Assembly: GCF_041886205.1 (NCBI RefSeq)
Contig: NZ_CP169030.1
DNA from: Escherichia coli
GTDB taxonomy: Bacteria > Pseudomonadota > Gammaproteobacteria > Enterobacterales > Enterobacteriaceae
Length of the DNA stretch: 64,000 nucleotides
Strand: one strand, 5' to 3'
The first letter of the stretch is position 1; the number at the start of each line of letters is the position of its first letter. A program made the translations under genes and the position numbers. A model generated the notes under the pieces. That model did no database searches. It was not told the origin of the DNA and worked only from the letters and a program-made list of their open reading frames with translations. Positions 1 through 22,463 of the stretch are shown here, one piece after another.

Positions 1-2
1 CA

Positions 3-1004
3 GACTGGATCCCAGGTATCAGTGGACATAATGATGAATATCTGAATCTTTTTGAGCCCGTCAGTGAGGATTTTCGTCATATCCAGACGACCGGTAAACG
101 ACTCAGCAGCCTGACGCACTGGCGATATTATTTTGCCTTCTCCTCACCACAGAATGTTCTGCCACCTGAATTCTTCAGACAGCTTTTTGAACAGGCTGGC
201 GTATCGGAAAAACAGCAGCAGCTTTCTGAATTGCTGCTCTCAAAAATCAACAGTGTGGGCAGTCTGTCCGGAACCTGGTTTGAACATATACTGAGCAGAC
301 TGACTCCAGGCCTGATAAGAGAACGTAATTTCGAAGAGTGCGCAGGACTGGTTCATTTTTTCTTCGATCACACCGATGAGGTGAGCACTCGCTTCAGTAT
401 CCGTAACCCATGGTTTTCCCTGCGTGAAATGGCCATTAATGAGGTTGTACGGCATCTGCTGAAGCATATGCAGGATATTGATGAGACCAGAACGATCACG
501 CTTATGGAAAAACTGATCGTTACGGGTGCTTCGCCGTTCTGGATAGCCGATTTTATGCGGGATCTTATCTGGGAACATGGACTTGCTCAGAATGCAGTAC
601 CTTCGCCTTCAGACGCTCTTTTCAGTCGCGATATTACGGAACGGTTGCGTGACAGGTTTGCGGAACGTATGAATCAACCAGAACTTCAGCAACAGCTTCT
701 CCTGCGCAAGTCTCTTCTCGGGTATCTCTACGCCTGGAGAGACATGAGTTCAGGTGAAACCGTGAAGCAATGGGTCAGAGAAGTTACTACCACTGATGAA
801 GGCCTTGTTAACCTGTTGATACGATTACAGACCAGTGTCTTCAGCTCCCACCGAGGGGCATATCGCCGGATTGCGCGTGACCAGGTCAGTCCGTTCTTTG
901 ATGACTGGCCAGCAGTCGAAGAGAAGTTGAAGGTTATGCTGTCCGGCAACGAGCTGACTCCGGAGCAGGAAGCGCTCAAAACAGCGCTGGAAAATGACGA
1001 CTGA
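3..1004 (+). CDS. Hypothetical protein, 5'-truncated by window start (reading frame open from position 3; ORF track start at 231 is only the first in-frame Met)
   Basis: Frame stays open without stops from nt 3 to stop at 1004; no recognisable catalytic motif; convergent with TIR-like gene and separated by a hairpin terminator. Confidence 0.4.
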   Translation, partial: DWIPGISGHNDEYLNLFEPVSEDFRHIQTTGKRLSSLTHWRYYFAFSSPQNVLPPEFFRQLFEQAGVSEKQQQLSELLLSKINSVGSLSGTWFEHILSRLTPGLIRERNFEECAGLVHFFFDHTDEVSTRFSIRNPWFSLREMAINEVVRHLLKHMQDIDETRTITLMEKLIVTGASPFWIADFMRDLIWEHGLAQNAVPSPSDALFSRDITERLRDRFAERMNQPELQQQLLLRKSLLGYLYAWRDMSSGETVKQWVREVTTTDEGLVNLLIRLQTSVFSSHRGAYRRIARDQVSPFFDDWPAVEEKLKVMLSGNELTPEQEALKTALENDD

Positions 1005-1015
1005 CCAAAAATTAA

Positions 1016-1036
1016 GGCCGCTTAGCGGCCTTTTTC
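1016..1036. terminator. Bidirectional rho-independent terminator hairpin (GGCCGC-TTA-GCGGCC followed by T-run)
   Basis: Perfect 6-bp stem palindrome ggccgcttagcggcc then ttttt, located between two convergent ORF ends. Confidence 0.5.
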
Positions 1037-1053
1037 TTACTAAATGAAGGAGA

Positions 1054-1953
1054 TCAGGCGCTTAATGCTTTATCCTTGTCAAAAGGAACACCGGCATACG
1101 CAAGCTCACTCAGCAGTTTGCGTTTCCATCCACCATGCTCATCAAGCTCGGTATAGAGAACCCCGGCAAGATCTGAAGGGATTTCGATATCTCCCTTCCT
1201 GAGTACAAGTACTTTCCCGCGTCCAAGCTTCCCGGCGAAATATCCGAGCTCATACAGGACATTCTGGCGTGCGCGGAGACGTGTGCTTTCAGATGCCAGA
1301 GCACTGCCGCTATCGTCGGGCGTCATCAGCACGATGGCAAAACTGACATCCCCTGACTCTGCTTCAAATTTCTCGATAATCGTCCTGGAGCCGTCAGGAC
1401 GTTCTGAAAGAATGATTTCCTCAAGACCTATCCGGGATATAAAACGGGCAACAGACTGAAGGGCATCATTATCATGGCCATGAACAATAAAAATTTTTCG
1501 GGAAACCGGCCGAAACACTGCAGGCTCAGGATCGTGTTGGTTTTCCACATACAACTGGTAATCGCGCACGAACGGGGCAACTAATGACGACGTGAATTTT
1601 CGAATGGATTCAATAATGTTTCGATCATAGAAAAATGTATGACAGAAATTAAAGGAAAAATTGTTATCGTCTGCCATTTTCTCGATCAGCAGCAACTTCA
1701 GGCCCAAAATATCAGCGGGCTCATCAGGCCACTGTAGAACAGCGGAACCAGCCATGCTGGATTCAGTATCTTCACTCCTGGCCAGAAAGGTATCAAGTTC
1801 AACATTGCGGGTCAGATGTGCATTAACTGACTGCAGATTCTCTGAGTTCAAGAGCCGGGCCAATTGCTTAAGAGGTTGCTGATAGTTCTGAACGTCAGCG
1901 CGCTGAAGGTCGAATACGCAATTTTTAAGTGACTGAAAGATATCAATTGCCAT
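1054..1953 (-). CDS. TIR-like domain protein (COG4271/PF10137-type C-terminal domain) with uncharacterised N-terminal domain; candidate anti-phage effector
   Basis: C-terminal half contains KIFIVHGHD ... AIVLMTPDD ... RARQNVLYELGYFAGKLGRGKVLVL, matching the hallmark motif pattern of bacterial TIR-like nucleotide-binding domains seen in CBASS/Pycsar/Thoeris-type effectors; ~45 percent GC. Confidence 0.5.
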   Translation of the reverse strand: MAIDIFQSLKNCVFDLQRADVQNYQQPLKQLARLLNSENLQSVNAHLTRNVELDTFLARSEDTESSMAGSAVLQWPDEPADILGLKLLLIEKMADDNNFSFNFCHTFFYDRNIIESIRKFTSSLVAPFVRDYQLYVENQHDPEPAVFRPVSRKIFIVHGHDNDALQSVARFISRIGLEEIILSERPDGSRTIIEKFEAESGDVSFAIVLMTPDDSGSALASESTRLRARQNVLYELGYFAGKLGRGKVLVLRKGDIEIPSDLAGVLYTELDEHGGWKRKLLSELAYAGVPFDKDKALSA

Positions 1954-2233
1954 CCTGCCCGCTCTCCTGTCTTTGTTGTTCTGCTCTGTCCAGAATCTGT
2001 TGGCGCAGATTTTCTTTCATGTGTTCGATTAATGGGCTGACCATCGGATTAGTGGCATAACCAGAAGCGCGTTCGTACACCATGGAATAGGCTTCCTGAA
2101 TCGCGTTCTCAATGCTGACAGGATCGTTAGCATCGAAGTGGACATCATAACTTCCGTTTAATGCCTCTGTTGCTCTCTCAACCTCTTTTAGCTGTTTCTG
2201 CATTTTGTCTAAACCTGTGATTTTGACGCTCAT
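1943..2233 (-). CDS. Small hypothetical protein (96 aa), upstream gene of the TIR-like operon, 11-nt overlap with downstream gene
   Basis: ORF immediately upstream and overlapping the TIR-like gene on the same strand, suggesting translational coupling; no recognisable motif. Confidence 0.4.
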   Translation of the reverse strand: MSVKITGLDKMQKQLKEVERATEALNGSYDVHFDANDPVSIENAIQEAYSMVYERASGYATNPMVSPLIEHMKENLRQQILDRAEQQRQESGQDGN

Positions 2234-2381
2234 AACAACCTCCGGACTAAGTGAGATGTATCAACCTTTATAGATAGCACGTTGGAGATGTGGGGTAAGG
2301 GATATCACTCAAATTCCATGTAATTTCATTAAGATCAGACTTAACCTTTTTTCGGATCTCAGATAAAAAAGAAAGAAATAG

Positions 2382-2512
2382 AGATATGCTAAACATATGC
2401 CTGGCATCTACATATGCTACCGCTATACATATGCCACACATCTGCCTATACTAAACATATGCACACACCCGGTGCTTTGAATATTCCGGATATGTTTCAC
2501 ATATCCATATGC
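2382..2512. promoter_or_regulatory. vapBC promoter/operator region with at least five ACATATGC repeats
   Basis: Motif (A)CATATGC occurs at about 2393, 2411, 2427, 2455 and 2505 directly upstream of the vapB start codon; CATATG is palindromic. Confidence 0.4.
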
Positions 2513-2528
2513 TCGGGAGAGAAAAAAC

Positions 2529-2759
2529 ATGAGAACCGTATCGATATTTAAAAATGGCAACAACCGCGCCATCCGTCTGCCTCGTGATCTGGATTTTGAG
2601 GGGGTGAGCGAGCTCGAGATCGTCCGGGAAGGGGACAGCATCATCCTGCGCCCCGTCCGGCCAACCTGGGGATCATTCCTAGAGTACGAAAAAGCCGATC
2701 CAGATTTTATGGCGGAGCGCGAGGATGTTGTCAGCGACGAAGGGCGATTTAACCTGTGA
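2529..2759 (+). CDS. vapB: VapB/VagC-type antitoxin (AbrB/SpoVT fold)
   Basis: 76 aa, N-terminal SpoVT/AbrB-like motif (RAIRLPRDL), stop overlaps start of PIN toxin gene. Confidence 0.8.
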   Translation: MRTVSIFKNGNNRAIRLPRDLDFEGVSELEIVREGDSIILRPVRPTWGSFLEYEKADPDFMAEREDVVSDEGRFNL

Positions 2760-3172
2760 ACAAGACTTATATGCTTGATACCTGTATCTGCTCGTTCATC
2801 ATGCGTGAACAGCCAGAAGCCGTCCTGAAGCGTCTGGAGCAGGCGGTGCTACGCGGCCACCGTATAGTGGTCTCGGCCATCACCTACTCTGAAATGCGCT
2901 TCGGGGCTACCGGCCCAAAGGCCTCACCACGTCACGTCCAACTGGTCGATGAATTCTGCGCCCGCCTCGATGCCATCCTGCCCTGGGATCGCGCCGCAGT
3001 AGACGCCACCACGAAGATTAAAGTGGCACTGCGGCTGGCCGGGACGCCGATCGGCCCGAACGACACGGCGATTGCCGGGCACGCCATCGCCGCCGGGGCG
3101 ATACTGGTAACGAATAATACAAGAGAATTTGAGCGAGTGCCTGACCTGGTGCTGGAAGACTGGGTGAAGTAA
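2756..3172 (+). CDS. vapC: VapC/VagD PIN-domain toxin
   Basis: 138 aa; MLDTCICSF N-terminus and C-terminal VTNNTREFERV motif typical of plasmid VapC/VagD PIN nucleases. Confidence 0.85.
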   Translation: MNKTYMLDTCICSFIMREQPEAVLKRLEQAVLRGHRIVVSAITYSEMRFGATGPKASPRHVQLVDEFCARLDAILPWDRAAVDATTKIKVALRLAGTPIGPNDTAIAGHAIAAGAILVTNNTREFERVPDLVLEDWVK

Positions 3173-3209
3173 GACACTCTTTTCAAAGTCAGGAGATAAG
3201 GGCACCAAG

Positions 3210-3235
3210 AAACAGCCCGTATACGGGCTGTTTTA
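3210..3235. terminator. Bidirectional terminator hairpin (AAACAGCCCG-TATA-CGGGCTGTTTT)
   Basis: Perfect inverted repeat flanked by A-run and T-run between convergent vapC and the RloC-like gene. Confidence 0.5.
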
Positions 3236-3333
3236 ACAGATATCTACAGTAAGCGGTCCTAAACTGTAGGGTATCTTCGAAGATCAGACTATCAGGGAGC
3301 TAAAGCCTATCTTCCGGCGGCAAAAACAGTGGC

Positions 3334-5472
3334 TCAAGCGATACGGGCAACCGAGCTCTGGTTTGCTGCCGGTGGCAGGGCGATGAGCTTGTCACATTCC
3401 ATAATCACGTACTCCGGGATGAGATCGAATCTGGACGGATCTAGTTGACAGATGAACTCATTTTCAATGTGGTACGTTTCGTTAACGAATTTTCGTATTA
3501 CCGGATGGTCCTGATCCAGTTCCAGTAAACGGAATACCTGCAGTTTTTCATAGCCGTTACGACAGCGACGGTACAGGTTTTTTATTTCATCTGGGCTGCT
3601 GACGAGAGCCTGAAGTCGCGGGTAATCAAAACTGTCCACATACTCCCGGATATCCCGCAAGGCCTGCTGAATTTTCTCAGGAGCCATTTTGGGATAGCCC
3701 GAGCCCGCAGCGGCAGGCTCGCGATAATCCAGCGGGACGACGCGTCGATGGAATAGATTGGATAGAAGCTGATAAGCATCACCACGTTCGTCAACGATTT
3801 CAAAGTAGCGACGAAGATAGATGAGCTTAATGATCTCCTCACAGTCTGCTGACGCGGTGATGGATTTGCAGATCTGCATGAATGTCATGATATCGCCGTC
3901 GTTAACAGGTAATTCTTCTATGACTCCAGCAGACAGGCGCAGGCAGGAGGCGGTCACCTGATTACTGAACAACCTTCTGACTGACTTCAGCGTGTCAATC
4001 ACAGGCTCCACGTCATGCGTCAGCATAAGTACAGTCCGGTTCTTCAGGCATTCACCACTTGCACGTCTGAACAGCATTTCAAGAATGGCAAACTTCTTGT
4101 TTTTATCAAAAGAAGATATGGGATCATCAAGGATAATCAGTCCCGGGTTTTTTGACAGGCATTCATACATGAATAACACAATCGCAAAGGCGTTCCGTTC
4201 TCCATAGCTGAGATGCTGGCTACCGCCGCTGACGTACCCGTCAAAATCTATGTGTCGTAGCCTGAGTTTTCTCTGCTCTCCCTCGCCGGCTATATCCACC
4301 CTGTATTTATAGCCTGCATAAGTGAGGAAATTATTGATGTTTGTTTTGTGCTGTGCGATCAGCCGGATCATGCTGTCCCGGTGCCGGTTAATTTTTCCCT
4401 GCAGCGGTCCGGCAAGGTTTATCAGGTCCATAAGGGCCGCGTTCAGTCTGTCGGTGATCCCCTGCATGAGTTCGGATTGCAGATCAGGGAAGAACTGCAG
4501 GTCAATCAACCTGGCAGTGAGCACCTCCCGAACGTTCTGCTGTTCCTGCAGGCTGAAAACATTCAGGCCTCTCAGCGCAGTGAGTTTCTCTGTCAGCGTA
4601 TCGGTCTGGCGTTTCAACGCCACTAGGTACTCGATATGTTCGGCTTCCGGACCGTTCTGAAGCATAGTAATGGCCAGAAGGCGTTCTCTGGCGCTCTCCG
4701 TCAGGTAATTACCGAGGTTTTCCACCAGTCTGATGATAGCGGTCAGGTTTTTAATGGTGGATTTATCGTATTCCTCTCTGACTTGGCGAATTTGTGCTTC
4801 CTTTCCCGTGATATCACCGGTACAGAACGGACAGCAGCCATCCGAAAGGGGCGAAAACTCGAGTCCCTTTGTCTGCCAGTCAATCCATTCCACGCGGCGT
4901 TCACTGCGGATGTAGGGTTGATAGTTCTCAAGACCAGCCGGAATGTGGTGTATTTTATTTCCGCCTGACAGACCTCTCATGCCGGTTGAAGAACGTGAAA
5001 TCCCGGAACTGGTTGATCTGAAAGCATTACTGAGTTCCTGTAGATGGTCTATCAGAGAGTTCAGCTCAGTGTGATCCGTGAAAACAGCCCGGATCTTTTG
5101 CGTCATTTCTTCTATTTCACGCTCTCTTTCCGCATGGGCTTGATTGCGGATAAGAATATTAAAGCTATCACTGATGAGCTCGTCCGGTTGGAACGTAAAC
5201 TGACTGACGTACTCCTCGTTGAAGCACATCACGTCCCCAATCCCGTCAGCACCGATGACAATGGGCCCGGTGCTATCGGGGTTTTCTCCGCGCAGCCGGA
5301 AGGGTATCAGTGCCTGTAGTCCCTGAATGTCGTCCCGCGCCGCACAGCTTATGGCCCGTGACAGCGTACTTTTTCCAGTACCATTTGGCGCAAACTTAAT
5401 GTTCAGTTTATCGGCAGTGAGGGTGATATGTGCTCGTACGATGTTATTGCAGTGGCGTATTTCAATGTCCAT
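3334..5472 (-). CDS. ABC-type ATPase with coiled-coil CxxC zinc hook and C-terminal domain; RloC/PrrC-like anticodon-nuclease candidate
   Basis: Walker A (FAPNGTGKST) at N-terminus, long predicted coiled-coil insert containing CPFC, Walker B/D-loop (LIILDDPISSFD) and H-loop (LMLTHD), then ~220-aa C-terminal domain with LRRYFE and H-containing motifs; architecture matches RloC. Confidence 0.5.
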   Translation of the reverse strand: MDIEIRHCNNIVRAHITLTADKLNIKFAPNGTGKSTLSRAISCAARDDIQGLQALIPFRLRGENPDSTGPIVIGADGIGDVMCFNEEYVSQFTFQPDELISDSFNILIRNQAHAEREREIEEMTQKIRAVFTDHTELNSLIDHLQELSNAFRSTSSGISRSSTGMRGLSGGNKIHHIPAGLENYQPYIRSERRVEWIDWQTKGLEFSPLSDGCCPFCTGDITGKEAQIRQVREEYDKSTIKNLTAIIRLVENLGNYLTESARERLLAITMLQNGPEAEHIEYLVALKRQTDTLTEKLTALRGLNVFSLQEQQNVREVLTARLIDLQFFPDLQSELMQGITDRLNAALMDLINLAGPLQGKINRHRDSMIRLIAQHKTNINNFLTYAGYKYRVDIAGEGEQRKLRLRHIDFDGYVSGGSQHLSYGERNAFAIVLFMYECLSKNPGLIILDDPISSFDKNKKFAILEMLFRRASGECLKNRTVLMLTHDVEPVIDTLKSVRRLFSNQVTASCLRLSAGVIEELPVNDGDIMTFMQICKSITASADCEEIIKLIYLRRYFEIVDERGDAYQLLSNLFHRRVVPLDYREPAAAGSGYPKMAPEKIQQALRDIREYVDSFDYPRLQALVSSPDEIKNLYRRCRNGYEKLQVFRLLELDQDHPVIRKFVNETYHIENEFICQLDPSRFDLIPEYVIMECDKLIALPPAANQSSVARIA

Positions 5473-5689
5473 TTATCTGTCCTTTGCCAGTTATTCCGGG
5501 GGGATTCATATCCTTCCGCAAAATGTGCCCGCATGCTGTGATGCAGATACATAATACATTTCGTTTATACCATTGCTTACACCTCTCCGAGGTGTTCATA
5601 TCAGAAACAAAGATTAGGTCGATCCGACTTAGCCGGAAACCGGATCTGCGCGGCAGAAAAGACGCAAATGATATGATAATTAAGAAATA

Positions 5690-5825: not shown

Positions 5826-6083
5826 ATGGATCAGGAAATGACGTTTTCACTCAGCTATGAACAACTGACCCGGTTTGCGGAACGACGCATCCGGGAATGC
5901 AATCTGGACAGCCAGGGCGCGATTTATCTCTGCGAGTCAGCCAAAGCCGGAGCCGTGCTGATCTTCTGGCATGAACTGGCCATAAATGGCTATGCCTCAA
6001 TGAATGCCATAAAGAGACAGGAGCTCATTGACGCCGACTTTCAGCGCCTCAGAAAGCTCATCTGGCCGGAGGATGACAGGTAA
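5826..6083 (+). CDS. Hypothetical protein (85 aa), first gene of a translationally coupled pair
   Basis: ORF with stop overlapping the start of the next gene (TAATG); no recognisable motif. Confidence 0.4.
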   Translation: MDQEMTFSLSYEQLTRFAERRIRECNLDSQGAIYLCESAKAGAVLIFWHELAINGYASMNAIKRQELIDADFQRLRKLIWPEDDR

Positions 6084-7038: not shown

Positions 7039-7166
7039 AGGAGCACCTCCGTTCCATGATGTAAACGTGACACAGCTTATTGTTATTGATTATTATTATC
7101 ATGCTGTGATTATGTTGTCATGCATCAGTACACTGACAAAAGTGCAAAAGAAAGGAAAACAGGCAG

Positions 7167-7502
7167 ATGAACAGAAAATATTATTTTAATAATATGTGGT
7201 GGGGATGGGTGACGGGGGGATATATGCTGTATATGTCATGGGATTATGATTTTAAATACAGATTACTGTTCTGGTGTATTTCTCTCTGCGGAATGGTTTT
7301 GTATCCGGTTGCAAAATGGTATATTGAAGATACAGCTCTGAAATTTACCCGGCCTGATTTCTGGAACAGCGGTTTTTTTGCTGATACACCTGGAAAAATG
7401 GGATTGCTTGCTGTTTATACGGGTACTGTTTTCATATTATCTCTTCCGTTAAGTATGATATATATTCTTTCTGTTATTATAAAAAGGCTGTCTGTAAGAT
7501 AG
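7167..7502 (+). CDS. Colicin Ia/Ib-type pore-forming colicin immunity protein
   Basis: 111-aa membrane protein MNRKYYFNNMWWGWVTGGYMLYMSW... recalled as the colicin Ia immunity protein; convergent with a colicin C-terminal remnant as in ColIa/ColIb loci. Confidence 0.6.
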   Translation: MNRKYYFNNMWWGWVTGGYMLYMSWDYDFKYRLLFWCISLCGMVLYPVAKWYIEDTALKFTRPDFWNSGFFADTPGKMGLLAVYTGTVFILSLPLSMIYILSVIIKRLSVR

Positions 7503-7523
7503 ACAGCCTGTCTTATATTTTAT

Positions 7524-7639
7524 TTAAATACCCCAGAACTTATTCGCTTTTTCCACAAGCGATTCATCAATCAGCGCACCGGTGACAGCCATCAGTAAAC
7601 CATACCCGATAATGCCTAAAGCGCTTCCGGTAAGAATAG
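7524..7639 (-). pseudogene. Colicin Ia-type gene remnant: only the last ~38 codons (C-terminal hydrophobic hairpin ... ESLVEKANKFWGI) remain, truncated by IS903-like element
   Basis: Minus-strand translation ILTGSALGIIGYGLLMAVTGALIDESLVEKANKFWGI-stop ends at 7524; frame is cut at the IS inverted repeat at 7640. Confidence 0.5.
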
Positions 7640-8698
7640 GCTTTGTTGAATAAATCAGATTTCGGGTAAGTCTCCCCCGTAGCGGGTTGTGTTTTCAGGC
7701 AATACGCACGCTTTCAGGCATACCTGCTTTCGTCATTTTGTTCAGCGCTCGTACCAGGGCCATAGCCTCTGCAACCTGACCATCGTAGTCACGCAGCGTC
7801 AGTGAACCCCCGAACAGCTGTTTTACCCGGTACATCGCCGTTTCCGCTATCGAGCGACGGTTGTAATCTGTTGTCCATTTCCACCGCGCATTACTCCCGG
7901 TCATTCGCTGATTAGCCACTGCACGGTTACGGTCTGCATATTCACCGGGCCAGTAACCCGCACCTTTTCGGGGAGGGATAAGCGCGCTGATTTTCTTACG
8001 CCGCAGTTCATCGTGACATAGCCGGGTATCGTAAGCGCCATCGGCGGCGGCTGACCTGATTTTCCGGTGGGTTTGCCGGATTAACCCGGGGAAGGCCTCT
8101 GAGTCCGTAACGTTGTTCAGCGACAGGTCAGCGCAGATGATTTCATGTGTTTTACTGTCAACGGCGAGATGCAGCTTACGCCAGATACGGCGGCGTTCCT
8201 GGCCATGCTTTTTGACTTTCCACTCGCCTTCACCGAAGACCTTCAGCCCGGTGGAATCAATTACCAGGTGTGCGATTTCACCCCGGGTGGGCGTTTTGAA
8301 ACTGACATTAACCGACTTTGCCCGCCTGCTGACACAGCTGTAATCCGGGCAGCGTAGCGGAACGTTCATCAGAGAAAAAATGGAATCAATAAAGCCCTGC
8401 GCAGCGCGCAGGGTCAGCCTGAATACGCGTTTAATGACCAGCACAGTCGTGATGGCAAGGTCAGAATAGCGCTGAGGTCTGCCTCGTGAAGAAGGTGTTG
8501 CTGACTCATACCAGGCCTGAATAGCTTCATCATCCAGCCAGAAAGTTATGGAGCCACGGTTGATGAGGGCTTTATTGTAGGTGGGCCAGTTGGTGATTTT
8601 GAACTTTTGCTTTGCCACGGAACGGTCTGCGTTGTCGGGAAGATACGTGATCTGATCCTTCAACTCAGCAAAAGTTCGATTTATTCAACAAAGCCCGT
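7640..8698. mobile_element. IS903-like insertion sequence (IS5 family, IS903 group), 1059 bp
   Basis: Terminal inverted repeats GGCTTTGTTGAATAAATC at both ends bracketing a 322-aa IS5-family transposase; no matching 9-bp target duplication. Confidence 0.8.
7695..8663 (-). CDS. tnp: IS5-family (IS903-group) transposase
   Basis: 322-aa DDE transposase ORF filling the IS between its inverted repeats. Confidence 0.85.
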   Translation of the reverse strand: MKDQITYLPDNADRSVAKQKFKITNWPTYNKALINRGSITFWLDDEAIQAWYESATPSSRGRPQRYSDLAITTVLVIKRVFRLTLRAAQGFIDSIFSLMNVPLRCPDYSCVSRRAKSVNVSFKTPTRGEIAHLVIDSTGLKVFGEGEWKVKKHGQERRRIWRKLHLAVDSKTHEIICADLSLNNVTDSEAFPGLIRQTHRKIRSAAADGAYDTRLCHDELRRKKISALIPPRKGAGYWPGEYADRNRAVANQRMTGSNARWKWTTDYNRRSIAETAMYRVKQLFGGSLTLRDYDGQVAEAMALVRALNKMTKAGMPESVRIA

Positions 8699-8810
8699 AA
8701 TTCATTTTATCTCCTACAAGATTATTTAATGGAATGAAAAATATCTGGCCTGATAATAATGTTCCAGAATTAATATCTGCAGGCTATGTTAAGTTGTCCC
8801 CACACACAAT

Positions 8811-9086
8811 CTACCTGTTTTCTCGTGTGTGCCACAGGCGCAATACATAAATAGTCTGGCCATTAAGTTCGTAACGGATTTCGTACTCGCCAGCAAAAAT
8901 CCGTCTGACCTCCCTGGGTTCAAACTGAAACAACTGTTCTCCCATACGTGGATGAGTTAACAGAATGACCGGTGCCTGTGTCAGGGATTGCACCGTTCTG
9001 GCGGCCGCAGGTTTACTGGCCAGCACCAGAAAATCATATAACCGCGCCAAATCAGAAAGCGCCTTACTGGTCCACTTCAGTTCCAT
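8811..9086 (-). CDS. RelE/ParE-family toxin
   Basis: 91 aa with typical RelE/ParE C-terminal signature; overlaps upstream antitoxin gene by 1 nt. Confidence 0.7.
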   Translation of the reverse strand: MELKWTSKALSDLARLYDFLVLASKPAAARTVQSLTQAPVILLTHPRMGEQLFQFEPREVRRIFAGEYEIRYELNGQTIYVLRLWHTRENR

Positions 9087-9370
9087 CAGCGTGGCACCGG
9101 TAACGGATTGTCAGTACTGAGGCTGTCCGCCCAGGCCTGTACAGCCTGATGGTCGATAACCTGTCCGGATGTCACATCGTCCAGGGCTTCCAGCGTCAGG
9201 CGATTACGCTCCTCCTCCTGGGCAAGCCATGCAGAAAGCGCCTGTTTGATAACCCAGCCCCGGGAGCGTTCCAGCCTGGCGGCCATCTGGTCGACTTTAT
9301 CAGCCATAGGTAATGGCACATGCGCGGTAATGACTTTTGTTGCTTGTGCACTATTGTTTTTCATTTGCAT
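9086..9370 (-). CDS. Antitoxin (RHH/ParD-like) of the RelE/ParE module
   Basis: 94-aa ORF immediately upstream of and overlapping the toxin gene. Confidence 0.6.
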   Translation of the reverse strand: MQMKNNSAQATKVITAHVPLPMADKVDQMAARLERSRGWVIKQALSAWLAQEEERNRLTLEALDDVTSGQVIDHQAVQAWADSLSTDNPLPVPR

Positions 9371-9755: not shown

Positions 9756-11333
9756 TTATCCTCGTTTTTCCCAAAACTGTTTTGCCAGTTCGCTCAGAGC
9801 GCTAGTTAACTGAGCGACAGATTTCGCACTTTGCAAATTATTCTGCCCGGTCTGTACATTGGTATCAGCAGCATCGCGTATATTGATAATACTGCGGTTT
9901 ATGTCTTCACTTACTGCTCCCTGCTGCTCGACCGCAGTCGCTATTTGCGCGTTCATGTCGGTAATTTCGTTAACGCGTTGGCCAATTCCATCAAGAGCTG
10001 TAGCTGCTTCCTCTGCGTGAGCTACACTCGTGTGCGCTTGCCGACTACTTTGCTCCATGACTGTAACAGCGGATTGCGCTCGCTCTTGTAGAGCGCTGAT
10101 CATGCTTTGAATATCCGTTGTCGATTGCTGTGTGCGAGCAGCAAGACTGCGAACCTCATCGGCGACAACAGCAAAACCACGCCCCTGCTCACCAGCACGC
10201 GCGGCCTCAATTGCTGCGTTGAGTGCCAACAAATTCGTTTGCTCGGCGATCCCTCGTATAACGTCAAGAACTTTTGATATCTCGTTACTTTGACCTTCAA
10301 GCTCATGAATAACCTGAGTGGCTTGCCTAATTTCACCTTCAAGGGCAGTGATTGACTGGCTTGTGTGGGCTACCAGACGCTGGCCAGATGCCGTCTCAGT
10401 GTCTGCTCTTCCGGCCGCATCTGCAGCATGCTGTGCATTGCTCGCAACCTCTTGAATGCTTGCCACCATTTGGTTTACTGCCGTTGCTATTTGATCTGTC
10501 TCTGCCTGCTGCTCAACTGTAAGTACATTGCTTGACTCAATATCCTTTAGTAGGCCTCGGGTGTGTTCGCTAAGCCGATTTGATGCATCACCTATGCGAC
10601 CTACTATGGCGCCTGTTTCAGCTTGCATCATTCGTAAAGCAAACTCTATTTGGCCAAACTCATCGGTGCGCCCAGTGTAGAGGGATTGACTTAATGGGTT
10701 ATTGGAAATATTCTTGGCTCTTTCAACCAGTCTTCCAAGAGGAGAGAGAATAGCCAAAACACTAACAGAGCTTAAGCTTCCTGACATTAAAGTGGCTAAC
10801 AATAAGCTGCTTATTGATGTATCAGTAAGCATGCCGGCAGCCATTGCGCTTGATATAATACTACCCCATATGAGCAAGAGTATTTTCACGGAAAAGCTAG
10901 CAGCCAATTTCGGCCTCGCGGCCTTCCCGCTTCTCAATTGAGCATATAATTTTTCCGCAGCCAAAACCTGCTCAGGTTCAGGCTTGGTCCTTACAGACTG
11001 GTATTCAACAATCGAACCATTCTTAGCTATTGGCGTTACATAAGCACTTACCCAATAGTGGTCGCCATTTTTACAGCGATTTTTTACTAGCCCCATCCAT
11101 GAGCGGCCAGATTTTAATGTACTCCACATATGCTCAAATGCAGCAGGCGGCATATCTGGGTGTCTTACGATGTTGTGAGGCTGGCCTAATAGTTCTTCCT
11201 CAGTGAAACCACTGATTTTAATGAAGTCAGGATTAACGTACGTGATATGGCTTTGAGGGGAGGTAGTCGAAAGAATATTGGCATCTTTTGGGAGTTCTAA
11301 GTTTCGACCCGTCACTGGTAAATTCTGGCGCAT
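9756..11333 (-). CDS. Methyl-accepting chemotaxis protein-like protein with PAS domain (Tn1721 orfI-type cargo)
   Basis: 525 aa; N-terminal PAS-like region, central TM segments, C-terminal MCP signalling domain ([31 protein letters not shown]). Confidence 0.8.
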
Positions 11334-16888: not shown

Positions 16889-16965
16889 CATCTAACTTTG
16901 TTTTAGGGCGACTGCCCTGCTGCGTAACATCGTTGCTGCTCCATAACATCAAACATCGACCCACG
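16889..16965. other. attI1 site (copy 1) with cassette junction GTTAGATGC on minus strand
   Basis: Sequence CCCTAAAACAAAGTTAGATGC (minus strand) directly upstream of intI1; boundaries approximate. Confidence 0.6.
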
Positions 16966-17031
16966 GCGTAACGCGCTTGCTGCTTGGATGCCCGAGGCAT
17001 AGACTGTACAAAAAAACAGTCATAACAAGCC

Positions 17032-18045
17032 ATGAAAACCGCCACTGCGCCGTTACCACCGCTGCGTTCGGTCAAGGTTCTGGACCAGTTGCGTGAGCGC
17101 ATACGCTACTTGCATTACAGTTTACGAACCGAACAGGCTTATGTCCACTGGGTTCGTGCCTTCATCCGTTTCCACGGTGTGCGTCACCCGGCAACCTTGG
17201 GCAGCAGCGAAGTCGAGGCATTTCTGTCCTGGCTGGCGAACGAGCGCAAGGTTTCGGTCTCCACGCATCGTCAGGCATTGGCGGCCTTGCTGTTCTTCTA
17301 CGGCAAGGTGCTGTGCACGGATCTGCCCTGGCTTCAGGAGATCGGAAGACCTCGGCCGTCGCGGCGCTTGCCGGTGGTGCTGACCCCGGATGAAGTGGTT
17401 CGCATCCTCGGTTTTCTGGAAGGCGAGCATCGTTTGTTCGCCCAGCTTCTGTATGGAACGGGCATGCGGATCAGTGAGGGTTTGCAACTGCGGGTCAAGG
17501 ATCTGGATTTCGATCACGGCACGATCATCGTGCGGGAGGGCAAGGGCTCCAAGGATCGGGCCTTGATGTTACCCGAGAGCTTGGCACCCAGCCTGCGCGA
17601 GCAGCTGTCGCGTGCACGGGCATGGTGGCTGAAGGACCAGGCCGAGGGCCGCAGCGGCGTTGCGCTTCCCGACGCCCTTGAGCGGAAGTATCCGCGCGCC
17701 GGGCATTCCTGGCCGTGGTTCTGGGTTTTTGCGCAGCACACGCATTCGACCGATCCACGGAGCGGTGTCGTGCGTCGCCATCACATGTATGACCAGACCT
17801 TTCAGCGCGCCTTCAAACGTGCCGTAGAACAAGCAGGCATCACGAAGCCCGCCACACCGCACACCCTCCGCCACTCGTTCGCGACGGCCTTGCTCCGCAG
17901 CGGTTACGACATTCGAACCGTGCAGGATCTGCTCGGCCATTCCGACGTCTCTACGACGATGATTTACACGCATGTGCTGAAAGTTGGCGGTGCCGGAGTG
18001 CGCTCACCGCTTGATGCGCTGCCGCCCCTCACTAGTGAGAGGTAG
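17032..18045 (+). CDS. intI1: Class 1 integron integrase IntI1 (copy 1)
   Basis: 337-aa tyrosine recombinase [49 protein letters not shown]... Confidence 0.95.
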
Positions 18046-18222
18046 GGCAGCGCAAGTCAATCCTGGCGGATTCACTACCCCTGCGCGAAGGCCATCGGTG
18101 CCGCATCGAACGGCCGGTTGCGGAAAGTCCTCCCTGCGTCCGCTGATGGCCGGCAGCAGCCCGTCGTTGCCTGATGGATCCAACCCCTCCGCTGCTATAG
18201 TGCAGTCGGCTTCTGACGTTCA

Positions 18223-18247
18223 GTGCAGCCGTCTTCTGAAAACGACA
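18223..18247. repeat. IRi (25-bp inverted repeat at intI1 end), copy 1, internal
   Basis: GTGCAGCCGTCTTCTGAAAACGACA; followed by TTTGA rather than the CGCCT seen outside IRt. Confidence 0.8.
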
Positions 18248-21086: not shown

Positions 21087-21134
21087 GAAGAAGGAGTCCT
21101 CGGTGAGATTCAGAATGCCGAACACCGTCACCCT
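21087..21134 (-). pseudogene. sul1: sul1 5' fragment (codons ~2-17 only), joined on one side to the 88-bp repeat and on the other to truncated attI1
   Basis: Minus strand reads (V)TVFGILNLTEDSFF, the N-terminus of Sul1 dihydropteroate synthase, lacking its ATG and everything after codon ~17. Confidence 0.7.
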
Positions 21135-21200
21135 GCTGCGTAACATCGTTGCTGCTCCATAACATCAAACATCGACCCACGGCGTAACGCGCTTGCTGCT
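21133..21200. other. attI1 (copy 2), truncated: lacks the GTTAGATGC crossover end
   Basis: Sequence identical to copy 1 from CCCTGCTGCGTAACATCG onward, but the cassette-proximal ~25 bp are replaced by the sul1 fragment. Confidence 0.6.
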
Positions 21201-21247
21201 TGGATGCCCGAGGCATAGACTGTACAAAAAAACAGTCATAACAAGCC

Positions 21248-22261
21248 ATGAAAACCGCCACTGCGCCGTTACCACCGCTGCGTTCGGTCAAGGTTCTGGA
21301 CCAGTTGCGTGAGCGCATACGCTACTTGCATTACAGCTTACGAACCGAACAGGCTTATGTCCACTGGGTTCGTGCCTTCATCCGTTTCCACGGTGTGCGT
21401 CACCCGGCAACCTTGGGCAGCAGCGAAGTCGAGGCATTTCTGTCCTGGCTGGCGAACGAGCGCAAGGTTTCGGTCTCCACGCATCGTCAGGCATTGGCGG
21501 CCTTGCTGTTCTTCTACGGCAAGGTGCTGTGCACGGATCTGCCCTGGCTTCAGGAGATCGGAAGACCTCGGCCGTCGCGGCGCTTGCCGGTGGTGCTGAC
21601 CCCGGATGAAGTGGTTCGCATCCTCGGTTTTCTGGAAGGCGAGCATCGTTTGTTCGCCCAGCTTCTGTATGGAACGGGCATGCGGATCAGTGAGGGTTTG
21701 CAACTGCGGGTCAAGGATCTGGATTTCGATCACGGCACGATCATCGTGCGGGAGGGCAAGGGCTCCAAGGATCGGGCCTTGATGTTACCCGAGAGCTTGG
21801 CACCCAGCCTGCGCGAGCAGCTGTCGCGTGCACGGGCATGGTGGCTGAAGGACCAGGCCGAGGGCCGCAGCGGCGTTGCGCTTCCCGACGCCCTTGAGCG
21901 GAAGTATCCGCGCGCCGGGCATTCCTGGCCGTGGTTCTGGGTTTTTGCGCAGCACACGCATTCGACCGATCCACGGAGCGGTGTCGTGCGTCGCCATCAC
22001 ATGTATGACCAGACCTTTCAGCGCGCCTTCAAACGTGCCGTAGAACAAGCAGGCATCACGAAGCCCGCCACACCGCACACCCTCCGCCACTCGTTCGCGA
22101 CGGCCTTGCTCCGCAGCGGTTACGACATTCGAACCGTGCAGGATCTGCTCGGCCATTCCGACGTCTCTACGACGATGATTTACACGCATGTGCTGAAAGT
22201 TGGCGGTGCCGGAGTGCGCTCACCGCTTGATGCGCTGCCGCCCCTCACTAGTGAGAGGTAG
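21248..22261 (+). CDS. intI1: Class 1 integron integrase IntI1 (copy 2, identical protein)
   Basis: Identical 337-aa translation to copy 1; one silent nucleotide difference noted. Confidence 0.95.
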
Positions 22262-22438
22262 GGCAGCGCAAGTCAATCCTGGCGGATTCACTACCCCTGC
22301 GCGAAGGCCATCGGTGCCGCATCGAACGGCCGGTTGCGGAAAGTCCTCCCTGCGTCCGCTGATGGCCGGCAGCAGCCCGTCGTTGCCTGATGGATCCAAC
22401 CCCTCCGCTGCTATAGTGCAGTCGGCTTCTGACGTTCA

Positions 22439-22463
22439 GTGCAGCCGTCTTCTGAAAACGACA
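22439..22463. repeat. IRi, copy 2 (outer end of integron), followed by CGCCT target duplication
   Basis: GTGCAGCCGTCTTCTGAAAACGACA then CGCCT at 22464-22468. Confidence 0.8.

What the first reader, a model, noticed from the sequence alone, without database searches (positions are those of the whole stretch)
7167..8698. Orphan colicin Ia-type immunity gene with colicin gene reduced to a 38-codon stub by IS903
The immunity gene is intact, but the convergent colicin gene retains only its last ~38 codons before the IS903-like inverted repeat. No 9-bp target duplication flanks the IS, so it probably mediated an adjacent deletion. The plasmid would give immunity without colicin production.
Basis: partly seen in the sequence, partly recalled or inferred. 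Interest (0 to 1): 0.4.

Follow-up and report, generated by a model that had tools for sequence, protein, structure and literature searches.

The report
Orphan colicin Ia immunity gene
An E. coli F-type plasmid keeps an intact colicin Ia immunity gene, but an IS903B insertion sequence has deleted all except the last 37 codons of the toxin gene; this is a real but ordinary, already annotated kind of plasmid decay.

Summary

**What is there**
- Window 7167-7502 (+) is an intact 111-aa colicin Ia immunity gene.
- 7524-7637 (-) is the last 37 codons plus the stop of colicin Ia (residues 590-626). It is 115/115 nt identical to intact cia genes.
- 7639-8695 is a complete 1057-bp IS903B with perfect 18-bp ends and no 9-bp target duplication.

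**Evidence for deletion**
- Related plasmids share exactly the same cia|IS903B junction.
- They carry four different, nested junctions on the other side of the IS, which is the signature of IS-mediated adjacent deletion.
- Against an intact relative, about 5.6 kb is missing: cia codons 1-589, yagA, yafB and small ORFs. The deletion ends 115 nt from a ParE/RHH toxin-antitoxin pair.
- One relative carries the same IS inserted into itself with a perfect 9-bp duplication. The missing duplication in the window is therefore meaningful.

**Function**
- The exact immunity protein sits beside full-length colicin Ia in other plasmids.
- No other cia sequence occurs in the 64-kb window.
- Immunity without colicin production is the likely phenotype, but this is inferred, not tested.

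**Novelty**
- RefSeq already annotates this stub as a pseudogene in identical plasmids.
- Orphan colicin immunity genes with shared truncations were surveyed in 2025.
- The finding is real but ordinary.

The parts
7067..7096 (+). Promoter-like site upstream of the immunity gene (GTGACA-18-TATTAT, 10 of 12 matches)
   Evidence: Consensus scan only. The 128-nt upstream region differs at one base (7109) from loci that have intact cia.
7167..7502 (+). Intact colicin Ia immunity gene (iia/imm), 111 aa
   Evidence: ORF. Pfam PF03526 match at 30.9 bits against a cut-off of 25. The identical protein sits next to full-length 626-aa colicin Ia in L022, L024, L025, L026, L028 and L029. It has 0 nt differences from L024 and L028. 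RefSeq names it 'colicin 1A immunity protein', WP_001080730.1.
7485..7509 (.). Bidirectional terminator-like hairpin between the convergent imm and cia stop codons
   Evidence: Found on both strands by the scan and as inverted repeat I13. The 136 nt after imm are identical to intact-cia loci.
7524..7638 (-). Colicin Ia (cia) 3' stub: codons 590-626 plus TAA (7524-7637) and one further base of codon 589
   Evidence: Translation. 115/115 nt identical to cia nt 1767-1881 of L022, and stub = Cia residues 590-626. Matches 1CII colicin Ia over 35 of 35 residues. RefSeq marks it as a pseudogene, 'colicin-like pore-forming protein, missing N-terminus', in identical plasmids.
7639..8695 (-). Complete IS903B: 1057 bp, 18-bp perfect inverted ends at 7639-7656 and 8678-8695, transposase at 8663->7695
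   Evidence: NCBIfam IS5 transposase match at 357 bits. Identical to the IS annotated as IS903B in NZ_AP024116.1. No 9-bp duplication at its flanks.
8696..8705 (-). Deletion endpoint: the first 10 nt (ATGAATTACG) of a small ORF that is 47 aa in the +315 relatives and 93 aa in L024
   Evidence: Comparison of right flanks. The window's flank starts at reference position 6080 of L024.
8811..9370 (-). ParE-family toxin (8811-9086) and ribbon-helix-helix antitoxin (9086-9370). These are the retained neighbours on the far side of the deletion.
   Evidence: Pfam PF05016 and PF01402. They lie in the same relative position, near the replication gene, in I-complex plasmids that have an intact colicin locus (L008; L024).

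Best explanation
This is an orphan colicin Ia immunity gene left behind when IS903B removed the toxin gene.

**Ancestral module (shown).** The order is ybaA(DUF6404)-imm-cia-yagA-yafB-small ORFs-parE/RHH, and it still exists intact in I-complex and other plasmids.

**What happened (inferred).** An IS903B copy came to lie in cia after codon 589. DNA next to its transposase-proximal end was then lost by IS-mediated adjacent deletion, meaning intramolecular transposition of that end into nearby targets. This probably took more than one step.

**What was lost (shown).** In the window about 5.6 kb is gone: cia codons 1-589 with its promoter, yagA, yafB and two to three small ORFs. The deletion ends 115 nt from parE.

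**What remains (shown).** The immunity gene is untouched, together with its upstream region and the shared terminator hairpin.

**Likely phenotype (inferred).** The plasmid should still make the inner-membrane immunity protein that blocks the colicin Ia pore. That would protect its host from colicin Ia producers, while the host can no longer make the toxin.
For: - **Anatomy:**
- **Stub identity:** 100% identical to cia nt 1767-1881, Cia residues 590-626, and matches PDB 1CII.
- **Intact ancestral order:** seen in L008 and in L022, L024 and L028.
- **Deletion size:** mapped against L024, the window keeps reference positions 1-472 and 6080 onward, so 5,607 bp are missing.
- **Nested series:** the left junction is identical in 7 plasmids of the plasmid collection and 10 RefSeq E. 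coli records, which partly overlap. The right junctions fall at four positions, retaining 315, 130, 60 and 0 nt more than the window.
- **Positive control:** in L015 an identical IS903B copy has inserted into the resident copy with a perfect 9-bp duplication, GTTTTCAGG. This IS is therefore active in the lineage, and simple insertions do leave a duplication.
- **IS903 biology in the literature:** IS903 is reported to be 1057 bp, to make 9-bp duplications, and to generate adjacent deletions and cointegrates (PMC12670165).
- **Immunity allele:** it is the same one that partners full-length Cia.
- **Immunity alone protects:** an expressed colicin Ia immunity gene on its own protects E. coli K-12 from a colicin Ia producer (PMC10761095).
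- **No second copy:** there is no other cia, yagA or yafB sequence in the window or in NZ_AP024116.1.
Against: - No progenitor was found, that is, a simple IS903B insertion in cia flanked by GTAAGAATA. The order of events is therefore inferred.
- Recombination between two IS903B copies would give the same end product.
- Immunity expression and phenotype were not measured.
- The exact source replicon is not in the searched collections, so the DNA outside the window could not be examined.
- The fixed left junction cannot be read as selection for imm, because the relatives were found by searching with imm or with that junction.
Confidence: 0.88

Rival explanations
1. The deletion arose by homologous recombination between two directly repeated IS903B copies, one in cia and one near parE. 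It was not a one-step intramolecular transposition (adjacent deletion).
For: A single IS without a target duplication is also the expected product of IS-IS recombination. IS903B is abundant in these plasmids, and the lineage shows repeated IS903B transposition (L015).
Against: Four nested right junctions share one left junction. Recombination would need four separate second insertions, each followed by recombination. No two-copy intermediate was seen among the fetched relatives, apart from the self-insertion in L015. The IS copies are identical or differ by 1-3 bases, which does not discriminate between the two routes.
Confidence: 0.15
2. The immunity gene is a silent or decaying leftover with no protective role. 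It is carried along only because it lies between backbone genes.
For: Within the IS903B lineage a few amino-acid changes occur: R107M in L005 and L015, and S24L in L019. One record has a frameshift (L007), though that record also looks error-prone. Expression was not measured.
Against: In the window the gene is 100% identical in DNA to copies that partner intact cia. Its upstream region and terminator are retained. The same orphan arrangement persists in plasmids from Japan, the USA, China, Korea, the UK, Malawi and Ecuador. A published survey argues that orphan colicin immunity genes with shared truncations are maintained (PMC12546727).
Confidence: 0.12
3. The stub is a duplicated fragment, and a complete cia gene lies elsewhere on the same replicon.
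For: Only 64 kb of the replicon is visible, and the exact source record was not found.
Against: A protein-against-DNA search with full-length Cia finds only the stub in the window. A nucleotide search finds only the 115-nt match. The closest complete plasmid with the identical module, NZ_AP024116.1 (95 kb), gave no match to the colicin N-terminal and central parts at E <= 0.1 and has no colicin gene in its annotation apart from the stub pseudogene.
Confidence: 0.03

Closest known systems
Colicin Ia operon (cia-iia) of ColIa, IncI-complex and IncF plasmids
   Same: The immunity protein is identical. The convergent gene layout, shared terminator and flanking ybaA (DUF6404) gene are the same. The last 115 nt of cia are identical.
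   Different: The toxin gene lacks codons 1-589 and its promoter. The neighbours yagA and yafB are also gone.
Orphan bacteriocin immunity genes on E. coli plasmids (survey in Nat Commun 2025, PMC12546727)
   Same: A pore-former immunity gene without a working toxin, beside a heavily truncated toxin gene. The same truncation is shared by plasmids of different size and origin.
   Different: Nothing essential. This report adds the mechanism and the nested junction series for one particular lineage.
IS903 / IS903B (IS5 family, IS903 group) and its adjacent deletions
   Same: 1057 bp, 18-bp inverted ends and a DDE transposase. It leaves a 9-bp duplication at a simple insertion (L015) and none after a deletion (PMC12670165).
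   Different: None found. It differs at 10 positions from the IS903B copy linked to blaCTX-M-14 in L003, so it is not obviously derived from that unit.
IS1-truncated cia with retained imm (L004, L020 and many Klebsiella and E. coli plasmids)
   Same: The same module and the same outcome: imm is kept, cia is reduced to a 3' remnant and an IS is joined to the parE side.
   Different: This is an independent event. It keeps 383 nt of cia, involves IS1 instead of IS903B, and has its endpoint 34 nt from parE. It is often bracketed by IS26.

Membership tests
Colicin Ia immunity protein (Iia; E1-type pore-former immunity) | Sequence identity to the immunity protein encoded next to a full-length colicin Ia gene | tested here: met
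   The exact 111-aa protein lies convergent to a 626-aa Colicin_Ia/Colicin-domain gene in L022, L024, L025, L026, L028 and L029. It has 0 nt differences from L024 and L028.
Colicin Ia immunity protein (Iia; E1-type pore-former immunity) | Match to the curated family model | tested here: met
   Pfam PF03526 at 30.9 bits against a gathering score of 25. No NCBIfam model matched.
Colicin Ia immunity protein (Iia; E1-type pore-former immunity) | Three membrane-spanning segments | tested here: inconclusive
   The Kyte-Doolittle profile shows two clear hydrophobic peaks, at about residues 36-46 and 82-103. The N-terminal aromatic-rich stretch does not reach a high score. No dedicated topology predictor was available.
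Colicin Ia immunity protein (Iia; E1-type pore-former immunity) | Confers specific immunity to colicin Ia | not testable with these tools
   This needs a colicin sensitivity assay. A cloned Ia immunity gene alone does protect in published work (PMC10761095).
Colicin Ia (cia), as a gene remnant | Colinear identity to the C-terminal pore domain of colicin Ia rather than Ib | tested here: met
   37/37 aa and 115/115 nt identical to Cia. 1CII matches at E = 4e-16, against colicin Ib at E = 5e-4. The Ib C-terminus in L008 is visibly different.
Colicin Ia (cia), as a gene remnant | Complete reading frame of 626 codons with translocation, receptor and pore domains | tested here: not met
   Only codons 590-626 remain, with no other cia sequence in the window. 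It is therefore a pseudogene fragment.
IS903B (IS5 family, IS903 group) | Length of about 1057 bp with 18-bp terminal inverted repeats | tested here: met
   7639-8695 is 1057 bp, with perfect 18-bp ends.
IS903B (IS5 family, IS903 group) | IS5-family DDE transposase | tested here: met
   NF033579 at 357 bits against a cut-off of 140. PF13737 and PF01609 also match. The IS is 100% identical in DNA to the copy in NZ_AP024116.1, whose transposase RefSeq names 'IS5-like element IS903B family transposase', WP_000654812.1.
IS903B (IS5 family, IS903 group) | 9-bp target duplication at simple insertions | tested here: met
   It is absent at the window copy, as expected after a deletion. It is present, as GTTTTCAGG, around the identical copy that inserted into the resident IS in L015.

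The most novel reading that the evidence does not exclude
The orphan immunity gene may be actively maintained, and even tuned, as a stand-alone anti-colicin defence.

Every fetched member of the IS903B lineage (13 loci plus the window) carries A at window position 7109. All 13 other fetched loci carry G there, including every one with an intact cia gene. The change turns TGTGGTTAT into TGTGATTAT (7105-7113), which is closer to an extended -10 promoter element, about 54 nt upstream of the imm start codon.

If this raises imm expression, the lineage would be a case of selection for immunity after toxin loss, rather than passive decay.
Probability: 0.08. Interest if true: 0.35.

Novelty: already known. 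Interest (0 to 1): 0.12.

Why it matters
It matters only modestly. The plasmid should be scored as 'colicin Ia immune, non-producer'. Gene-presence screens that count imm as a colicin or virulence marker should allow for this; one study, for example, reports Imm as a marker of ST1193 strains (PMC10756391).

The nested junction series is a clean natural illustration of IS903B adjacent deletion. It adds a worked example to the published argument that orphan colicin immunity genes persist on E. coli plasmids (PMC12546727). It does not reveal a new kind of system.

Tried and rejected
1. **My first translation of the stub used the wrong frame**. It was corrected.
2. **Remnant of the ISEcp1-blaCTX-M-14-IS903B unit?** That unit interrupts cia in IncI/K plasmids (L002, L003). 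I rejected this because the unit sits at a different cia position and has an iroN-like fragment between IS903B and cia. Its IS903B also differs at 10 positions.
3. **Search for the progenitor.** I looked for a simple IS903B insertion in cia flanked by GTAAGAATA. Nothing convincing turned up in the plasmid collection, and there was no exact match in the representative genomes.
4. **Search for the exact source replicon.** The best matches were partial in both the plasmid and the E. coli genome collections. The rest of the replicon could not be checked.
5. **An apparent leftward-deletion variant** (hits H231-H234). It was an artefact: the search tool had joined an unrelated IS903B copy to the match.
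6. **Reading the fixed left junction as selection for imm.** I rejected this because the relatives were ascertained through imm or through that junction.
7. **NCBIfam** gave no model for the immunity protein or for ParE.

Full report
**What is in the sequence**

The region holds four features.
- An intact 111-aa ORF lies at 7167-7502 on the plus strand. It matches the colicin E1-type immunity family, Pfam PF03526, at 30.9 bits against a cut-off of 25.
- A hairpin at 7485-7509 scores as a terminator on both strands.
- Convergent to the ORF, 7524-7637 on the minus strand reads ILTGSALGIIGYGLLMAVTGALIDESLVEKANKFWGI and then TAA.
- At 7639 a 1057-bp element begins and runs to 8695. It has perfect 18-bp inverted ends (GGCTTTGTTGAATAAATC) and an IS5-family DDE transposase at 8663->7695 on the minus strand.

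The nine bases on either side of the element are GTAAGAATA and CGTAATTCA, so there is no target duplication. '38 codons' is correct if the stop codon is counted.

**Identity of the parts**

The stub is colicin Ia, not Ib.
- It equals residues 590-626 of a full-length 626-aa colicin Ia, and 115/115 nt are identical.
- 35 of 35 aligned residues match the solved colicin Ia structure 1CII at E = 4e-16. Colicin Ib matches at only E = 5e-4.
- The colicin Ib C-terminus in L008 is clearly different.

The immunity protein is the normal working allele.
- The exact sequence is very common in public assemblies.
- It lies next to a full-length Colicin_Ia-domain gene in at least six contigs: L022, L024, L025, L026, L028 and L029.
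- Its DNA has no differences from L024 and L028.
- The 136 nt downstream are identical to intact loci, and the 128 nt upstream differ at one base.

The IS is the element RefSeq calls IS903B. It is identical to the annotated copy in NZ_AP024116.1.

**Where the module comes from**

The window is part of an F-type conjugative E. coli plasmid.
- It carries an IncFII-family repA and the tra genes.
- It also carries a Tn402-like class 1 integron region, tet(A) and tet(M).
- These follow from mapping onto NZ_AP024116.1.

The colicin neighbourhood is a module shared with I-complex plasmids. Its order is ybaA(DUF6404)-imm-cia-yagA-yafB(ProQ/FinO)-small ORFs-parE/RHH-rep. This is visible intact with colicin Ib in L008 and with colicin Ia in L022, L024 and L028.

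**How the toxin gene was lost**

Aligned to the intact reference L024, the window keeps reference positions 1-472. These cover imm, a 21-nt spacer and 115 nt of cia. The window resumes at position 6080, so 5,607 bp are missing. The missing DNA comprises:
- cia codons 1-589 and the cia promoter;
- yagA;
- yafB;
- two small ORFs and all but the first 10 nt of a third.

The deletion ends 115 nt from the stop codon of a ParE-family toxin gene (8811-9086), which has its RHH antitoxin at 9086-9370.

The key evidence is comparative.
- The exact cia|IS903B junction occurs in 7 plasmids of the plasmid collection and 10 RefSeq E. coli plasmid records, which partly overlap.
- On the other side of the IS these relatives have four different, nested junctions.
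  - One lies within the 3' end of yafB, retaining 315 nt more than the window: L005, L007, L014, L016, L019 and L027.
  - One retains 130 nt more: L015.
  - One retains 60 nt more: L006.
  - One is the window's own junction: L001, L013 and L017.
- One fixed end with a ladder of endpoints at the other end is the classical footprint of IS-mediated adjacent deletion. IS903 is reported to do this (PMC12670165).
- The variable side is the end nearest the start of the transposase gene.

A natural control exists in L015. There an identical IS903B copy has inserted into the resident copy with a perfect 9-bp duplication, GTTTTCAGG. This IS is therefore active in the lineage and does leave a duplication when it simply inserts. 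That makes its absence in the window informative.

The +315 relatives also carry a separate 1,035-bp difference between yafB and parE that does not touch the IS. The immediate ancestor was therefore not identical to L024.

**What could not be shown**

- No progenitor with a simple insertion in cia was found. The order of events is inferred, and recombination between two IS903B copies remains a possible, less parsimonious route.
- The exact source plasmid is not in the collections searched, so DNA beyond the 64-kb window was not examined.
  - Within the window, full-length Cia matches only the stub, and yagA and yafB match nothing.
  - The closest complete plasmid with the identical module has no match to the colicin N-terminal and central parts and no annotated colicin gene apart from the stub pseudogene.

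**Likely function**

What follows is inference from established knowledge of pore-forming colicins. The immunity protein is a small inner-membrane protein made from its own promoter, and it blocks the cognate colicin channel in the membrane.

The gene, its upstream region and its terminator are intact. An expressed Ia immunity gene alone protects E. coli K-12 from a colicin Ia producer (PMC10761095). The plasmid should therefore give immunity without production.

The 37-codon stub has no start codon of its own apart from an internal ATG that would give 22 aa. It encodes only part of the hydrophobic hairpin and the last helix, and nothing suggests it has a function.

**Is it new?**

No.
- RefSeq already annotates this very stub as 'colicin-like pore-forming protein, incomplete, missing N-terminus' in identical plasmids.
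- A 2025 survey found 243 E. coli plasmids with orphan bacteriocin immunity genes, 146 of them for pore-formers. It noted heavily truncated toxin genes with the same truncation shared across plasmids (PMC12546727).

The same outcome has also arisen independently several times in this module:
- an IS1-linked truncation that keeps 383 nt of cia, widespread in E. coli and Klebsiella plasmids and often bracketed by IS26;
- a deletion without any IS that keeps 164 nt of cia (L023);
- interruption by the ISEcp1-blaCTX-M-14 unit (L003).

All these relatives were found by searching with imm or with its junction. Their retention of imm therefore cannot be taken as evidence of selection.

**A small loose end**

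All 13 fetched loci of the IS903B lineage, and the window, carry A at position 7109. All 13 other fetched loci carry G. The change moves TGTGGTTAT towards the extended -10 consensus, about 54 nt upstream of imm. It may be no more than a lineage marker, and I did not test it further.

**Verdict**

The observation and the interpretation are both supported. The feature is real and ordinary. It is already annotated and belongs to a described class, so it is of low interest.

Noticed in passing
L015 2541-4663 (NZ_JBRNHK010000002.1): An identical IS903B copy sits inside the resident IS903B, flanked by a perfect 9-bp duplication, GTTTTCAGG. The same plasmid has a fourth deletion endpoint that retains 130 nt more than the window.
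   Followed up: yes
window 7105-7113 (SNP at 7109): Every IS903B-lineage locus has A at 7109, and every other fetched locus (including all with intact cia) has G. The A allele gives TGTGATTAT, closer to an extended -10 element about 54 nt upstream of imm, with a -35-like TTGATT at 7086-7091.
   Followed up: partly
L004 5041-7613; L020 4734-9312: An independent orphan-imm form: imm plus 383 nt of the cia 3' end, joined by IS1 to a point 34 nt from parE. In L020 IS26 copies bracket it. It is common in Klebsiella plasmids and is also present on an E. coli chromosome record (CP067399.1).
   Followed up: partly
L023 6001-7245 (CP043541.1): A deletion without any IS keeps 164 nt of the cia 3' end and joins it to sequence upstream of yafB. 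Colicin B/M-type genes lie nearby, and the record is chromosome-sized.
   Followed up: partly
L003 6905-13610: The ISEcp1-blaCTX-M-14-IS903B unit, with a TonB-dependent receptor fragment, is inserted in cia. The two cia pieces overlap by 5 bp, as expected for an ISEcp1 target duplication. L002 has a tandem duplication of blaCTX-M-14.
   Followed up: partly
L018 2597-5081 (NZ_OZ547260.1): The IS903B next to the cia stub is itself interrupted by IS21.
   Followed up: no
window 16915-18247 and 21131-22463: Two copies of a 1.3-kb segment containing intI1. They belong to a resistance region with Tn402-like tni genes, qacG2, tet(M), TnAs1 and tet(A), by similarity to NZ_AP024116.1.
   Followed up: no
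window 1-5600: This part is not shared with NZ_AP024116.1. In other plasmids the matching DNA is annotated as a TIR-domain protein, an AAA/KAP-type ATPase and VapBC, which may be a defence-related cluster.
   Followed up: no
window 9756-11333: A PAS-domain methyl-accepting chemotaxis gene lies right next to the ParE/RHH pair. It resembles the mcp passenger gene of Tn1721/Tn1722-type transposons described in PMC5052281. Other relatives have a Tn3-family remnant or the tcu operon at this position instead.
   Followed up: no
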